This document shows positions 1,068 to 59,642 of a stretch of DNA of 64,000 nucleotides, one piece after another. The stretch spans positions 115,382,001-115,446,000 of the forward strand of contig OZ024743.1 of NCBI GenBank assembly GCA_964016885.1, read 5' to 3'. Source of the DNA: Eledone cirrhosa. Its lineage: Eukaryota. Each line of letters begins with the position of its first letter. Position 1 is the first letter of the stretch. The position numbers were made by a program, and so were the translations under genes. The notes below the pieces were generated by a model. That model did no database searches. It worked only from the letters and a program-made list of their open reading frames with translations, and was not told the origin of the DNA.

Positions 1068-1474
1068 TAGGAAAAAGTATCACCCCGACGGCAGAGCTCA
1101 AGCCGTTTCGACGGCTATTTCTGGACTAAATTAGAATTTTTAGCCTGGTAAATATATAGCCGAACTTCCTTATATGGGAAGATTGTAGTTGTTAAGAGGA
1201 TTGGTCAAAATTTGAGACTTATTTGTGTTTACAACAAATTTTGACCAATCCTCTTGACAACTACAATCTTCCCATATAAGGAAGTACCCCTTGACAAGTT
1301 CGACTATTTATTTACCAGATTAAAAATTCTAATTTAGTCCAGAAATAGCCATCGAAACGGCTTGAGCTCTGCCGTCGGAGCCATACTTTTTCCTATTACC
1401 CACTCTACTACCCTAAGTATTGACTACTCTGGTACGTCATGGTCCATCTGGTTCCTTACCACATTTCCTTCGTT
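1068..1474 (+). mobile_element. Fold-back pLTR remnant, family A (other pieces at 61-142, 3580-3767, 24218-24287, 24622-24720, 37727-37921)
   Basis: Arms 1068-1213 and 1237-1395 are inverted. Shared tail ...ccttaccacatttccttcgtt(AT)n; flanked by (AT)n. Confidence 0.85.
1286..1381 (+). ncRNA. Hammerhead ribozyme-like motif, U3-A8 variant (family A)
   Basis: CCCC-UUGACAA-stem II (C(G/A)CUAUUU..AAAUAGCC)-GAAA-CGGC UUGAGCUCU GCCG-UC-GG(G/A)G. Sister copies give GGGGU for the 3' strand of stem I. Confidence 0.7.
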
Positions 1475-2845
1475 ATATATATATATATATATATATATAT
1501 ATTATAAATATATATATATATATATACATATATATATATATATATATATAGAGAGAGAGAGAGAGAGAGATACGGAGGGAGAGAGACACTGACTACAATG
1601 TAAGAGAGAGAAGTGAATAAAGACCATGATGAATAAGATATAATGTAAAGTGAATGAGAAGTGCATCTACAAACACACAGACGAACACACACACACACTC
1701 ATAATATGTATATGTGTCTCTGTGTGTGTTTGTGTGTGTTTGTGTGTGTATGTGTGTGTGTATGTGTGCGTGTGCGTATGTGTGTGTGTATGCGTGTTAT
1801 TATATTGTAAATATAGATCAACATATACATACGAGGTATACTGAATACCTTCAACAACATACTATTAATATATTAAAACTTACCACAAGTTTGAAAAGAA
1901 GAGCAAAATAACGTGAGGCATACTTTTGTAATAATTATATATATATATATATATATTTATATATATATATATATCCAAATACAGGGGCGGGGGAATTGAG
2001 GGGCAGAAGGTGGCAAGAACGCCCTCCCTCCCCAGTAATTGAAGGGATCAGAGATAGTGTAGGCATACATATATATATATATATATATATATATATATAT
2101 ATATATATATATATACATATATAAATATATATATATATATATATATATATATATATATATATATATATATATATATATATATATATATATATATATATAT
2201 ATATATATATATTTATATATATATATATATACACATATATCATGGTATCGGGAATAACAGGAATAATTAGACAGGAAGTATTGGTCAGAAGGAGAAATGT
2301 ATTGAGAGTTCATTTAGTATATATATATATATATATATATATATATAAATATCACGATAAATTAACGGAGCCATAGACTCTCGTTATTCCCTGTCAATAA
2401 TGTGTTCAAAGGAAAAGGAATTCTGAGTTCTTTAAACAACTTCCTGGCGAAACAGTTCTGTTTGGATGTGTACGCGTGTGTTATATAGTTATAGGGTGCG
2501 TATATATATTTTAATTTATATTTTTAATTATTGTGTGTCTACCATGACTTCCACAGATTATAGACTCCATACACTGGTGGTTTTCCCTATTTTATTAATG
2601 GCACACTATCTCTCTTTAGTGTGTTACCTTTTCAACATATTGTATATATATATATATATTTCATTCATATATATATATATATATATATATAAATTTTTTT
2701 TGTTTTTTTTTCATTCTTATATATATATATATATATATATATATATATATATATATTGCAAGGGGTGTCAACATGAATCCACCTGTTATTTTTATCTAAA
2801 TAATTTTTTCCAGTTACATAATATCTATCTTATTTCTCATTCTTT

Positions 2846-2880
2846 CCTCTGATGAAGGAGTAGCATCCGAAACCTTAAGA
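2846..2880 (+). ncRNA. Minimal hammerhead-like motif in a PLE 3' remnant (2757-2965)
   Basis: CU-CUGAUGA-A-GGA guagca UCC-GAAA-CCU-UA-AG. Stems I and III are very short. Confidence 0.6.
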
Positions 2881-3059
2881 CCCTCTTCCTACTATACCAA
2901 GCGTTAACCTAATATGTCCCTTCCATATACTGTACCGATTGTGTTTTTATTTCTGTTTACCTTTTATATACATATAATATATATATATATATATATATAT
3001 ATATATATAGATATAGATAGGTAAATATACACGGGTGTGTATGATTGTGTATAGAAGAT

Positions 3060-3485
3060 TATATTAATAAGAGGAATTCCAACTTTGTCTGATTTACTCG
3101 TTTTATTTACAATCCTTTAAAATATATATAATGGTATTATAATGAAATAGTATGATAGAATATTAAATTCTAAGTGTTAATTGAACAAGTACTTTCATGC
3201 TTTCGCAATCTTCAGGTTCATGATATGTGGTGACAGTCGAGTTTGCAATTTTCAACTGTCTATATTTTTTTTTCATTCATATATATTTTCATTTGTCTGA
3301 CCCGAATTTTCTTGGTCGTATTTTTGGCTGTGCGAATGATTGTTTAAGCATCGTCTCAGTGTGTTGGTATTAAACGTTAATTATAGCTCTGGTTTATCCG
3401 AACTATTGAGCACTTTTCCACACATTTCGAAGAATGTGTTTCGTTATTTCGTGGGCCGAAGTTCCGATTCTCGATAACTTATTTG
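3060..3485 (-). mobile_element. Possible highly decayed PLE linker/3' fragment
   Basis: The minus strand reads ..FNTNTLRRCLNN..KYDQENSG, resembling the region just before a PLE GIY-YIG domain. It is bounded by (AT)n. Confidence 0.3.
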
Positions 3486-3579
3486 TATATATATATATAT
3501 ATATATATATATATATATATATATATATATATATATATATATATATAGTATATGTATTTATATATATATATATATATAT

Positions 3580-56543: not shown

Positions 56544-58371
56544 TGTGTGTGTGGGCGGGTGTGTGTGCGTGTGTGTGTGTGTGTGTGTGTGTGTGTGTGT
56601 GTGTGTGTGTGTGTGTGTGTGTGTGTGTGTGTGTGTGTGTGTGTGTGTGTGTGTGTGTGTGCGTGTGGGTGTGGGTGTTTAAAAGGTAAACAGAAATAAC
56701 AACACAATCAGTACAGTATATGTAAGGAATATATTAGGTTAATGCTTGAAATAGCAGGAAAAGGGTCATTATGTTTCGGACGCTAGCATAAAGAATGAGA
56801 AATAAGATAGATTGAAGGGATGAGCGGTGTGTTTGTTTTGTGTTGTTTCATTTATTAACTACACAGATACACACACACACGCACACACATATATATCTAT
56901 ATTATCTGTGTATGTGTGTGTGTAAGTATTGATCCATATTTCTGTCAGTCCCTGGCGTTACGCTGTTAGTTCTTCAGAATCTGAATAACTACTTTTCATA
57001 TCACACGGATACGTGTGCTCCAGAGAATCAGTCAAAAGAATCAGCCTAAATAAGCTATTACAATCCATACATTCATTAGGTATATTTATATATATATATA
57101 TATATGTGTGTGGGGGGGGGGGTGTATGTGTGTGTGTGTGTGTGTGTGTGTGCGTGTGTGTGCGAGAGCGTGCGCACGTGTGTGTGTGTGTGTGCGTGTG
57201 TGTGTGCATGTGTGAGTGCGTGGTGTGTGTACAAGATAATTTATCTATTATATTATTGTTGCAACGACGTTTATCATTCTAACTGTATAGAAAATGTGAT
57301 TGTTGTATTTGCGCCATGGACATTTAATGCGTCTGTCGATGGCTGAAAAGTGTTTATGGTAATTTAGCATGACAGTTGATCGTTTTATAGATACATTTGC
57401 AATGTCATTTGACATAATGATCGGATAAACGTTTCTATCCCTATTAAACATTTATGTGCCAACTGTAGAATGATTCTCCACTGGACGTTTTTCATTGCTA
57501 CATTCTATTGAATTTCGATTGAATTTTGAAACTAAAGTGGGAATCTAAATTCGGAATTCTAAACATAGAACTGTTCTGAATATTCAGTAGTATTCACTAA
57601 ACTTCATCTCAAATTATTCTAACCATCACCAAAACAACACTGAATTATTGCCCATGTACAATGAGTATATTTGCAAGAAACTTATTGAGGAAGAGAATCA
57701 AATGTAATTTATGTAAGCAAAAGATCTCTCGGTTCAAACAACTCAACGTAATAATGATATACGTTCTATTGTTTATTCCGAATACAGTATCAATACTTAC
57801 AAGATGGAAGGGATCGTTAATATATATTCGCCCACGTAAATGTATAATCACACACACACACATACCCCCCCCCCCCCACACACACAGTGTTATATGCAAA
57901 AACATACACAAGCATTGTATATATAGTTATAACTGTGGAGACTAAAATCCGAAGATGACTCGATAAGGATTATATATATAAATATAGTTTCAGAAGATCC
58001 CGTTAAATGTGAATGCAGCGATCCTTTGCTTAAACTTTAATCTGTTGTTTTAATATATATACATATATATTAAAAAGGATGGAAACCAAACATATGTGTT
58101 TATACTTATGTATATATATATATATGTGTGCGTGTGTGTTTGTGTGTGTGTGTTTGTGTGTGTGTGTTTGTGTGTGTGTATATGTTTTTCTATAATTTGT
58201 CCTAACTCTCGTATGGTTGAGTAAACAATTAGGCGGAATTAGACTGCTTCTTCTATCAATTCTGTTACTCGCCACCAGCCTATCCTTCACTACCCCTATG
58301 TACCGTAAAACCACATGATAATTTTATTTTCCGAAAGTTTAACTCGTAGCGTTTAGTTTGGGGAATTTGTC

Positions 58372-58780
58372 CTTACATTGAAGGAGTCTCTTGTCAAGCT
58401 GTCTACCTCACAGCTAGATTGCATTTTAACTGCACTTTGGCTGCACACCACTCGGTGAAACTGTTCTGTAGGGACAATGAAGAAAAATCAGGTGTTTTTT
58501 GTCTATTTGCTCATCAGACTTATAATTATATATAGCTCTGATTAATTGGTTATTTATCTAATTCATTCATTTATAGAGGAAAATTTGTAAATGATGGACA
58601 CCACACATATATATATATATTTATACATATGTATCTATATGTATGTCCTTACACTGAGGGAATCTCTTGACAAGGTTGGGTGTTTTAACTGCACTTTGAC
58701 TGCAAAAGCAGTCAGGACTATGAAGGAGAATTAGGTATGTTTTGACTATTTGCTCTTCACTTCACACTTGTAATTATATA
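58372..58780. repeat. Diverged local duplication
   Basis: gtccttaca.tga.gga.tctcttg.caag...ttttaactgcactttg.ctgca occurs at ~58370 and ~58645. Confidence 0.65.
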
Positions 58781-58885
58781 TATATATATATATTTATATA
58801 TAGTTATGTATAGTGGTAGCTATGGTGCTTCCATAGGCGGTATGCCAAAATTAGCACTCGATATTCATCAGAGTAGAGTGTAGAT

Positions 58886-59222
58886 ATTATAAAGAAAACG
58901 AAAAATCAGTGATGCATCTGGATTTAGTTTATTTTGTGTTACAAATGTTTCGCTGGCATGTAGCTCGAGTCATGGTCATTGTATGGATCTGGTTGATTCT
59001 ACTTCTGCGGGTATTTTCAGACACGGGTGTTTCGTCCGGAGCAAATTTTATCACCGATAACATTTGCTCCGGACGAAACACCCGTGTCTGAAAGAACCAG
59101 CAAAAGTAGAATCAGCCAGATCCATACAAATACCATAACGCGAGCTACATGCCGGCGAAACATTTGTAACACGAAATAAACTAAGTGCAGATGCCTCACT
59201 GATTTTTCGTGTTCTTTATAAT
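58886..59222. mobile_element. Fold-back insert with hammerhead-like motif (59083-59173 +)
   Basis: Palindrome centred near 59054. Motif CGUGU-CUGAAAGA-ACCAGC...GCCGGC-GAAA-CAUUUG-UA-ACACG. Confidence 0.8.
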
Positions 59223-59341
59223 ATATATATATATATATATATATATATATATATATATATATATATATATATATATATTATTAGAAAGTGAGGTTTTTTT
59301 TACAAAATGAAAAATAACCGAGTTGTCCTACGCGAGTGAAA

Positions 59342-59642
59342 GTATAGAGAAAAACAGATCAAATCGAAAATGCAACTGGAGTGTTATTTAAAAAAATATA
59401 TATATATTTATTTGGTTCCTTCACCGGTTTCGCAGTTCTTCTGCTTTTCAAAAGTAGAGTTGAGATGGAGGGTCTGTGGTTTTTCTCACATCAGATGTGA
59501 GAAAAACCACAGACCCTCCTTCTCAACTCTACTATTGAAAAAAAAAGAACTGCGAAACCGGTAAAGGAACCAAATAAATATATATATTTTTTTAAAGATA
59601 AGACTCCAGTTGCATTTTCGATTTCATCTTTTTTTCTATATA
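59342..59642. mobile_element. Fold-back insert with U3-A8 hammerhead-like motif (59419-59454 -)
   Basis: Palindrome centred near 59493. Motif CUU-UUGAAAA-GCAG aagaa CUGC-GAAA-CCGG-U(G/A)-AAG. Confidence 0.8.

What the first reader, a model, noticed from the sequence alone, without database searches (positions are those of the whole stretch)
1286..59454. U3-A8 compensatory swap in the hammerhead core in four unrelated families
Seen: cores UUGACAA (1291), UUGAGAA (6418-6424 -), UUGAUAA (34628) and UUGAAAA (59445-59451 -). Each sits between stem I and stem II and is followed by GAAA, a palindromic stem III and, in at least one copy, a GUH triplet; stem II is weak in the 34628 case. Known: C3-G8 is a tertiary pair in the active fold, and U3-A8 is a tolerated replacement. 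Inference: double substitutions in four families point to selection for activity rather than decay, and a CUGANGA-only search would miss them.
Basis: partly seen in the sequence, partly recalled or inferred. Interest (0 to 1): 0.72.

Follow-up and report, generated by a model that had tools for sequence, protein, structure and literature searches.

The report
Variant-core hammerheads in Penelope-type repeats
Four abundant repeat families in this animal genome each carry a hammerhead-ribozyme motif whose usual C-G core pair is replaced by U-A in nearly every copy, which likely still allows self-cutting; the same variant was described in Penelope-like retroelements in 2014, so this is a new example of a known kind.

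Summary
Each lies in a copy of a different high-copy repeat family (here F1-F4) of a 3.0-Gb AT-rich animal genome. Typical family members have the full hammerhead layout: helix I, U-UGA-N-A-A, helix II closed by G-C, GAAA, a palindromic or hairpin helix III, U-H, helix I. Three of the four window copies are themselves damaged.

- **Fixation:** U3 and A8 are fixed in all four families. T3 was seen in 95-99 of 100 listed copies (82 of 84 in F2) and A8 in 98-100 of 100 (84 of 84). No listed copy reads CUGANGA.
- **Other families:** in 400 kb of evenly spaced genome, intact palindromic-helix-III hammerheads are C-G 14, U-A 6, other 1. I found no family with a mismatched 3-8 pair.
- **Selection:** F3 has a large subfamily with a compensatory U-A to C-G change in helix II. 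In F1 only the free position N7 varies.
- **Carrier:** F4 lies 3' of an RT plus GIY-YIG ORF, which marks a Penelope-like element. Close inverted pairs are always head-to-head.

Selection on the ribozyme fold is therefore supported. Four independent swaps are not, because all U-A families share a C15.2-G16.2 (GUH) context. The variant is published (Cervera and de la Pena 2014), and this scan has noted it before, also in this genome. Cleavage and expression are untested.

The parts
1278..1388 (+). F1 hammerhead copy. Helix I 5' 1278-1290; core UUGACAA 1291-1297; helix II 1298-1353; GAAA 1354-1357; helix III hairpin 1358-1374; U16.1-C17 1375-1376, with the predicted cut after 1376; helix I 3' 1377-1388. 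This copy has G-to-A changes in helices I and II.
   Evidence: Sequence. Family alignment. In an intact family copy (L121) the monomer minimum-energy fold is the three-way junction.
1074..1170 (-). Inverted, head-to-head partner copy of F1. It lacks 14 nt that include helix I 5' and most of the core. The junction hairpin lies at about 1201-1249.
   Evidence: (row L031_1450).
6389..6428 (-). F2 hammerhead copy. Helix I 5' 6428-6425; core UUGAGAA 6424-6418; helix II 6417-6406; GAAA 6405-6402; palindrome 6401-6396; U-A 6395-6394, with the predicted cut between 6394 and 6393; helix I 3' 6393-6389.
6317..7645 (-). The F2 element copy that holds this hammerhead near its 3' end. Coverage by other copies falls with distance from the 3' end, the pattern of 5' truncation.
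34604..34687 (+). F3 hammerhead copy. Long helix I (distal 34604-34619 with 34672-34687; proximal 34624-34627 with 34665-34668); core UUGAUAA 34628-34634; helix II 34635-34648, damaged here; GAAA 34649-34652; 10-nt near-palindrome 34653-34662; U-C 34663-34664, with the predicted cut after 34664.
   Evidence: Five of 5 intact family copies match Rfam Hammerhead_HH9 below threshold.
34317..34827 (+). F3 insertion of about 1.6 units in direct order. The upstream hammerhead (34317-34345) has lost about 30 nt, including the core. The unit from cut site to cut site is 34346-34664 (319 nt). A (TA)n run follows the 3' end.
   Evidence: Same-strand spacings of 302-331 nt elsewhere in the genome.
59419..59454 (-). 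F4 hammerhead copy. Helix I 5' 59454-59452; core UUGAAAA 59451-59445; helix II 59444-59432; GAAA 59431-59428; CCGG 59427-59424; U 59423; G17 59422 (A in most of the family); helix I 3' 59421-59419.
59529..59575 (+). Second, decayed arm of the F4 head-to-head pair. Core-equivalent at 59535-59541; the 5' strand of helix II is lost. The palindrome centre is near 59493.

Best explanation
The four sites are copies of type I hammerhead ribozymes of the Penelope-like-element/retrozyme kind in which core pair 3-8 is U-A instead of C-G, and the motif likely still self-cleaves.

**Shown**
- Each site belongs to a separate high-copy family in which U3 and A8 are fixed.
- The rest of the hammerhead layout is intact in typical members.
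- F4 lies downstream of an RT plus GIY-YIG ORF.
- F3 occurs as units of about 320 nt, in tandem and head-to-head.

**Inferred**
- Transcripts that hold more than one unit would be cut after H17. For F2, F3 and F4 this would happen as dimers formed through the palindromic helix III.
- The unit-length RNA would then be copied back into (TA)n-rich DNA by a Penelope-type reverse transcriptase, leaving the head-to-head, 5'-truncated insertions seen here.
- The U-A families probably stem from one older U-A lineage rather than from four separate swaps.
For: **Fixation of U3 and A8 (patterns with N at positions 3, 7 and 8)**
- F3: 450 matches; of 100 listed, T3 98 and A8 98.
- F1: 479 matches; of 100 listed, T3 95 and A8 99, with N7 = C 45, A 38, T 15, G 2.
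- F2: 84 of 84 listed; T3 82 and A8 84.
- F4: 5,282 matches; of 100 listed, T3 99 and A8 100.
- No listed copy is CUGANGA.

**Descriptor scan open to all 16 combinations at 3 and 8**
- In 40 evenly spaced 10-kb stretches, the palindromic-helix-III class gave C-G 14, U-A 6 and A-G 1. The A-G hit is a point-mutant copy of a C-G family. Shuffles gave 7 hits in 5 replicates.
- Among hits not of the locus's own target family in the 429-kb set: C-G 22, U-A 7, others 3.
- By cluster there are about 9 C-G families and 5 U-A families, and none is mismatched.

**Selection on the fold**
- Of 100 listed F3 copies with C at 10.2 (265 matches in all), 98 have the compensating G at 11.2 and 2 have A.
- The named hammerhead structure pairs 86.8% of cells on 16 F3 copies, against 28-48% when slid.
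- The monomer minimum-energy fold of an intact F1 copy is the three-way junction. The dimer fold of F3 is a double hammerhead.

**Carrier**
- RVT_1 plus GIY-YIG sit in one 472-aa ORF in L144, and in adjacent frames in L143, upstream of the same-strand F4 motif.
- Close inverted pairs are always -/+: F3 14 against 0, F1 12 against 0, F2 9 against 0 among the listed places. I counted these by eye.

**Literature**
- U3-A8 covariation, about 1,300 hits and opposite-strand pairs 100-700 bp apart in Schistosoma PLEs (PMC4209133, passages).
- PLE insertions with an inverted 5'-truncated copy, and a microsatellite insertion bias (PMC8557442, passages).
Against: - No cleavage or expression data exist. 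No RNA run is listed for this organism.
- Rfam does not call any of them. The window has 0 matches at gathering score. Intact F3 copies reach only 24.5-27.2 bits against the 52 needed for Hammerhead_HH9. Intact F1, F2 and F4 copies give no hammerhead match at E up to 10.
- Helix I is weak in F2 (2+2 bp with a bulge) and in F4 (3 bp), and ViennaRNA does not predict it.
- Many F4 copies are near-perfect palindromes. As one RNA these would form a long hairpin that competes with the ribozyme fold.
- Within F3, covariation beyond the single 10.2-11.2 pair does not exceed the shuffle control: 153 of 500 shuffles reach the observed percentage paired.
- Penelope-like elements without canonical hammerheads (Naiads) proliferate well (PMC8557442), so amplification alone does not prove an active ribozyme.
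- The family count rests on 829 kb of a 3-Gb genome and on a descriptor that requires the other core bases to be intact.
Confidence: 0.7

Rival explanations
1. These are dead ribozymes that hitch-hike. A hammerhead lost activity through the two changes, but the elements that carry it kept amplifying because Penelope-type retrotransposition does not need the ribozyme. The motif is a fossil kept only by the youth of the families.
For: [quoted passage not shown]
- There is no activity or RNA evidence.
- Helix I is weak in F2 and F4.
- Copies within a family are 93-98% alike, so conservation within a family says little.
Against: - Five families unrelated in sequence keep every other core base, G10.1-C11.1 and a palindromic helix III, while everything else differs.
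- Both partners of the 3-8 pair changed, and no family carries only one change.
- F3 spawned a subfamily with a compensated helix II pair, 98 of 100 listed.
- In F1 the only core position that differs between subfamilies is N7, the one position free in hammerheads.
Confidence: 0.2
2. This is per-copy decay of canonical CUGANGA hammerheads through C-to-T and G-to-A transitions.
For: - Both changes are transitions.
- In 1291 the A8 follows a C, a possible CpG context.
- Three window copies show other G-to-A damage.
Against: - U3 and A8 are shared by 95-100% of the listed copies of each family, and no listed copy is CUGANGA.
- Single changes occur at the 1-5% level expected of random hits.
Confidence: 0.02
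3. These are chance matches of an AT-rich heptamer near a GAAA.
For: TTGANAA occurs 67 times in the window, and hairpin-type helix III hits abound in shuffles.
Against: - With a palindromic helix III, shuffles give about 1 hit per 400 kb over all 16 combinations at 3 and 8. Real DNA gives 21.
- All four sites belong to families with the full layout.
Confidence: 0.01

Closest known systems
U3-A8 variant of the minimal hammerheads in pseudo-LTRs of Cercyon Penelope-like elements of Schistosoma mansoni (Cervera and de la Pena 2014, PMC4209133; passages read)
   Same: - The same core covariation, U3-A8 for C3-G8.
- Many dispersed copies (about 1,300 hits there).
- A position in a Penelope-like element.
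- Pairs on opposite strands 100-700 bp apart.
- A palindromic 15.2-16.2 / loop 3, with dimer action proposed.
   Different: - Here helix II is a plain 4-bp stem (F2-F4) or a long stem (F1, F5) that starts right after A9. The bulged nucleotide between 9 and 10.1 that the paper lists as typical is absent.
- F1 and F3 have full-size helices I and III rather than a minimal form.
- The host is a different, much larger genome.
- I did not see the paper's figure 2 inset, so motif details could not be compared.
Animal non-LTR retrozymes (Cervera and de la Pena 2020, PMC7229834, abstract start and passages; Li et al. 2026, bioRxiv 10.64898/2026.07.22.740005, abstract and two passages)
   Same: - Short non-coding units with a type I hammerhead, found in tandem. 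F3 has same-strand spacings of 302-331 nt and a 319-nt unit in the window.
- A proposed dependence on Penelope-like elements.
   Different: - The passages I read describe the usual core. I found no mention of a U-A core in them, and the supplements were not opened.
- circRNA, the hallmark of retrozymes, could not be tested here.
- F1, F2 and F4 occur mostly as single or head-to-head copies, not tandems.
Rfam Hammerhead_HH9 (RF02275) and the other Rfam hammerhead models
   Same: Five of 5 intact F3 copies align end to end with HH9 (model 1-77 of 77), E 9e-4 to 7e-3 in a 4.1-kb search.
   Different: Scores of 24.5-27.2 bits are about half the gathering score of 52. F1, F2 and F4 give no hit.
Laboratory exchanges of the C3-G8 pair (Przybilski and Hammann 2007; Nelson and Uhlenbeck 2008). 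Not read; named in the introduction of PMC3884650 as confirming the pair.
   Same: They established that positions 3 and 8 form a Watson-Crick pair in the active fold, which is why a U-A swap is expected to be tolerated.
   Different: Those were engineered ribozymes. How much activity a U-A pair keeps is my recollection, not something I saw in a call.

Membership tests
Hammerhead ribozyme (type I) | Invariant core bases U4 G5 A6, A9, G12 A13 A14, the A15.1-U16.1 pair, and H (not G) at 17 | tested here: met
   Present in typical copies of all four families. In the window the F4 copy has G17. The F1 partner copy and the upstream F3 copy have lost the core.
Hammerhead ribozyme (type I) | C3 and G8 as in the usual consensus CUGANGA | tested here: not met
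   U3 and A8 are present in 95-100% of listed copies. The Watson-Crick character of the pair is kept.
Hammerhead ribozyme (type I) | Three helices around the core, with helix I open | tested here: inconclusive
   Helix II and helix III are met in all four families. Helix I is solid in F1 (9 pairs with a bulge) and F3 (4 + 15 pairs). It is only 2+2 bp in F2 and 3 bp in F4, and is not predicted by folding.
Hammerhead ribozyme (type I) | Match to a curated Rfam hammerhead model at its gathering score | tested here: not met
   The window has 0 matches. Intact F3 copies reach 24.5-27.2 of 52 bits. The others give no hit. The canonical C-G copies of the window are also missed at gathering score.
Hammerhead ribozyme (type I) | Site-specific self-cleavage after position 17 | not testable with these tools
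   No RNA run is listed, and there is no bench work.
Penelope-like-element hammerhead | Lies in the 3' region or pseudo-LTR of an element that encodes RT plus a GIY-YIG endonuclease | tested here: met
   Met for F4 only. L144 has a 472-aa ORF with RVT_1 (E 1.4e-6, below the Pfam cut-off) and GIY-YIG (E 4.7e-7). L143 has the same protein in two frames at 91-92% identity, with the same-strand motif downstream. ORFs beside F2 copies gave no Pfam match. F1 and F3 were not linked to an ORF.
Penelope-like-element hammerhead | Insertion footprint: an inverted 5'-truncated copy at the 5' side, partial tandems, microsatellite targets | tested here: met
   There are 35 -/+ pairs against 0 +/- pairs among listed places of F1-F3. 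The window has head-to-head pairs for F1 and F4, and (TA)n at the outer ends. The feature is described in PMC8557442.
Minimal hammerhead of Cervera and de la Pena 2014 | [quoted passage not shown] | tested here: not met
   In F2, F3 and F4, G10.1 follows A9 directly and pairs with C11.1. A palindromic helix III is present in F2-F4, but F1 has a 4-bp hairpin.
Animal non-LTR retrozyme | Tandem units of about 170-400 nt, each with a type I hammerhead, expressed as circRNA | tested here: inconclusive
   F3 has 10 same-strand pairs at 302-331 nt among 100 listed places and a 319-nt unit in the window. circRNA is not testable.

The most novel reading that the evidence does not exclude
U3-A8 hammerheads are a separate, long-lived ribozyme lineage in this genome and not an oddity. 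They make up about three in ten of all intact palindromic-helix-III hammerheads. They occur in at least five families unrelated in sequence, ranging from an autonomous Penelope element to 320-nt retrozyme-like units. Their core swap is coupled to a C15.2-G16.2 (GUH) cleavage-site context (5 of 5 U-A families against 2 of 9 C-G families). This would point to a structural or kinetic coupling between the 3-8 pair and the first pair of helix III that has not been described.
Probability: 0.3. Interest if true: 0.45.

Novelty: new member of a known kind. Interest (0 to 1): 0.3.

Why it matters
It gives natural covariation support for the 3-8 pair of the hammerhead active site in a second, much larger genome. 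The evidence includes a within-family compensatory change, which argues that the ribozyme fold is under selection in the amplifying lineages. It also shows that searches built on CUGANGA, and the Rfam thresholds, undercount hammerheads in such genomes by roughly a third or more. The families named here are ready material for a cleavage test with single and double mutants. It does not change what is known about how these elements work.

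Tried and rejected
- **RNA evidence:** The look-up of sequencing runs listed 3 runs of one study, none on record as RNA. No RNA holder is listed, so I did not lay reads. Ends, circles and expression remain open.
- **Rfam at E up to 10 on the whole window:** none of the 150 listed matches is a hammerhead. The listed matches are microsatellite and hairpin look-alikes of miRNA models. A further 68 lower-scoring rows were not shown to me.
- **RNAalifold on 16 F3 copies:** it chose a monomer alternative (helix II plus a competing stem) and not the three-way junction. 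This fits a helix III that pairs between two molecules, but it is not support.
- **The count of structure pairs on the same alignment:** there is no excess over shuffles, and one pair shows changes on both sides.
- **tblastn of the F4-linked RT/GIY-YIG protein:** no match in the window or in the two F2 loci, so the window holds no copy of that ORF.
- **Pfam on 12 window ORFs and 6 ORFs beside F2 copies:** the only window hit is an RT fragment at 22332-22826 (-). What F2 encodes is unknown.
- **Look-ups of earlier scan notes by place and by sequence:** nothing found.
- **Not done:**
  - genome-wide counts of C3 or G8 variants in F4 and of the U-G intermediate in F3;
  - a search for older C-G subfamilies of F1-F4;
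  - a tree of Penelope RTs against hammerhead type.
  Whether the U-A lineage has one origin therefore stays an inference.
- **Clustering:** grouping hits into families was done by string similarity at two thresholds, which merged families differently. The counts of 9 and 5 families come from my reading.

Full report
**What is in the window**

Each is followed by a helix II segment, GAAA, a self-complementary helix III, and U plus one more base.

The window is AT-rich, with GC of 0.31-0.45 per 4 kb. The bare heptamer TTGANAA occurs 67 times on the two strands, so it means nothing on its own. What matters is the whole layout.

Only the 6424 site passes a structural descriptor in the window itself. 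The other three window copies carry private damage:
- The 1291 copy has G-to-A changes in helices I and II.
- The 34628 copy has a broken helix II and one mismatch in the palindrome.
- The 59451 copy has G at position 17.

**The four families**

Each site is one copy of a different interspersed repeat of the window's own genome. That genome has 2,995,841,428 bases, and the window is C4:115382001-115446000. The first look found 1,144, 1,969, 1,646 and 1,175 candidates for the four queries. Forty were scored each time, at 92-100% identity over full or near-full length. I call the families F1 (site 1291), F2 (6424), F3 (34628) and F4 (59451).

In individual intact copies the layout is complete:
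- **F1:** a helix I of 4 bp, extended by 5 more after a 3-nt bulge. A long helix II closed by G-C. A 4-bp helix III hairpin whose loop holds a 6-nt palindrome. GUC.
- **F2:** a 4-bp helix II with a 4-nt loop. A 6-nt palindrome flanked by A and U. GUA. Helix I of 2+2 bp around a bulge.
- **F3:** a proximal 4-bp and a distal 15-bp helix I. A 4-bp helix II. A 10-nt palindrome. GUC.
- **F4:** a 3-bp helix I. A 4-bp helix II. CCGG. GUA.

The window elements share no similarity beyond matches of 20 nt or less, mostly TA-rich.

**Are U3 and A8 fixed?**

I searched the genome with each family's flanks and left positions 3, 7 and 8 open.

| Family | Matches | Listed | T3 | A8 | N7 |
|---|---|---|---|---|---|
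| F3 | 450 | 100 | 98 | 98 | T 99, A 1 |
| F1 | 479 | 100 | 95 | 99 | C 45, A 38, T 15, G 2 |
| F2 | 84 | 84 | 82 | 84 | G 80, A 3, C 1 |
| F4 | 5,282 | 100 | 99 | 100 | A 99, G 1 |

No listed copy reads CUGANGA. The few C3 copies keep A8. The reversed-pattern controls gave 0 in every search. Only the first 100 places of a search are listed, in genome order, so these are samples. They are unbiased with respect to the open positions.

**How this compares with the other hammerheads of the genome**

I wrote a descriptor that accepts any base at 3, 7 and 8. It requires UGA, A9, a helix II, GAAA, a helix III, U-H and a helix I.

With a palindromic helix III it is specific. Block shuffles gave 3 hits in three replicates of 429 kb and 7 in five replicates of 400 kb, over all 16 combinations. 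The hairpin class of helix III is not specific, so I did not use it except for F1.

- **Unbiased sample.** In 40 evenly spaced 10-kb stretches, the palindromic class gave C-G 14, U-A 6 and A-G 1. The U-A hits were three F4, two F2-like and one of a fifth family, F5. The A-G hit is a point-mutant copy of a C-G family.
- **Biased sample.** In the window plus the flanks of 116 loci (429,105 bases), hits that are not of the locus's own target family were C-G 22, U-A 7, U-G 1, G-A 1 and A-C 1. This set is biased toward F1-F4.

Grouped by similarity, I read about nine C-G families and five U-A families, and no family with a mismatched pair. A second clustering merged some of them. With nine and five, perfect concordance has a chance of 1 in 2,002 under independence (my arithmetic). 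That figure counts families as independent, which the next section questions.

**One swap or four?**

All five U-A families have C15.2-G16.2, which gives GUC or GUA. All five have G10.1-C11.1 directly after A9, and all have a rather short proximal helix I. Seven of the nine C-G families have U15.2-A16.2 (AUA), and most have an 8-bp A/U-rich helix I.

Five of 5 against 2 of 9 has a one-sided exact probability of about 0.01 (my arithmetic). This shared context is more simply explained by one older U-A lineage that diversified, or by a constraint that couples the two pairs, than by four independent double substitutions. I could not decide between these readings.

**Evidence for selection on the fold**

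Copies of a family decay neutrally once inserted. The useful signal therefore lies in the differences between subfamilies, which reflect the source elements.
- **F3.** There is a second subfamily in which pair 10.2-11.2 is C-G instead of U-A. Of 265 matches with C at 10.2, 98 of the 100 listed have the compensating G and 2 have A.
- **F1.** The only core position that differs between abundant subfamilies is N7, the one position that is free in hammerheads. The two arms of an inverted pair share the same N7.
- **Folding.**
  - The hammerhead structure I named pairs 86.8% of cells on 16 F3 copies, against 28-48% when the 3' partners are slid.
  - An intact F1 copy folds into the three-way junction as its minimum-energy structure (-26.7 kcal/mol, z -1.7).
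  - Two F3 molecules fold into a double hammerhead joined by the palindrome (-81.1 against -70.4 for two monomers).

Against this:
- The shuffle control is not exceeded.
- RNAalifold prefers a monomer alternative.
- Helix I of F2 and F4 is too weak to be predicted.

**What carries them**

For F4, two loci with motifs several kb apart hold an ORF with RVT_1 and GIY-YIG domains on the same strand as the downstream motif. In L144 this is 472 aa in one frame. In L143 it is the same protein at 91-92% identity in two frames. RT followed by GIY-YIG is the mark of endonuclease-bearing Penelope-like elements (PMC8557442, passages).

- **F3** behaves like a retrozyme. Ten same-strand pairs among the 100 listed places are 302-331 nt apart. 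The window holds about 1.6 units, with 319 nt from cut site to cut site.
- **F2** in the window is a 1.33-kb copy with the motif near its 3' end. Coverage by other copies falls toward the 5' end. Its ORFs match no Pfam family.

Every close inverted pair is head-to-head (-/+): 14 for F3, 12 for F1 and 9 for F2, against none in the opposite order (my count). The window's F1 and F4 insertions and its three canonical pairs follow the same rule. The outer ends abut (TA)n runs. This is the insertion shape described for Penelope-like elements.

**What is known**

Cervera and de la Pena (2014, PMC4209133; passages read) report:
- U3-A8 instead of C3-G8 in the hammerheads of Cercyon Penelope-like elements of Schistosoma mansoni;
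- about 1,300 hits with a descriptor for that core;
- pairs on opposite strands 100-700 bp apart;
- palindromic positions 15.2-16.2, with dimer action.

The introduction of PMC3884650 states that C3 and G8 pair in the active fold. That engineered U-A pairs keep activity is my recollection only.

One search, the search on the 3-8 pair (terms U3-A8, C3-G8, C3U, G8A), found no other paper with U3-A8 in the held library. Notes of this scan record the same variant in other windows, two of them in this genome. They are leads and not evidence, and they did not overlap my families by sequence.

**Verdict**

Selection on the fold in the source lineages is supported, while catalytic activity is inferred. 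The claim of four independent swaps is not supported, and the variant itself is already published.

The modest additions here are:
- the within-family compensatory change;
- the roughly 30% share of U-A motifs;
- the absence of mismatched families;
- the link between U-A and GUH.

Noticed in passing
window 3910 (-) / 4326 (+); 45531 (-) / 45656 (+); 51281 (-) / 51450 (+): Three pairs of canonical C3-G8 hammerheads with palindromic helix III, each head-to-head (-/+). The 45656 copy is a U3-G8 point mutant of its family. The 51450 copy has A instead of U at 16.1. Rfam gathering thresholds miss all of them.
   Followed up: partly
genome-wide listings: Close inverted pairs of F1, F2 and F3 are always -/+ (35 against 0) at variable distances (76 nt to about 4 kb). 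This is the footprint of an inverted 5'-truncated copy at the 5' side, as described for Penelope-like elements.
   Followed up: partly
window 1018-1070, 1485-1550, 34836-34882, and both outer ends of the F4 pair near 59395 and 59590: The outer (3') ends of the F1, F3 and F4 insertions abut (TA)n runs. This suggests either insertion into TA microsatellites or their creation at insertion.
   Followed up: no
window 1161-1170 (-) and 34327-34333 (+): Two partner copies have lost the ribozyme core by short deletions: 14 nt in F1 and about 30 nt in F3. Each deletion lies between short direct repeats (AAGT, GTAC).
   Followed up: no
window 59350-59640 and F4 loci L092-L120: Many F4 copies are near-perfect palindromes with the two cores 78-84 nt apart. 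They score as long hairpins against MITE-derived miRNA models such as mir-548 (70.5 bits, below the threshold of 90). As RNA they would form long double strands.
   Followed up: partly
L083, L170 (9698 +) and two further places: A fifth U3-A8 family (F5). It has an 8-nt palindromic helix III, GUC, and a helix II segment of about 59 nt. It was seen 4 times in the sampled DNA.
   Followed up: partly
window 15868-17799 (+): An open frame of 643 aa with no Pfam match. Near-identical motif hits at 15398 (-) and 18522 (-) suggest a direct repeat about 3.1 kb apart around it.
   Followed up: no
window 22332-22826 (-): A reverse-transcriptase fragment (RVT_1, E 6.1e-9). It is unrelated to the F4-linked Penelope ORF by tblastn.
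   Followed up: partly
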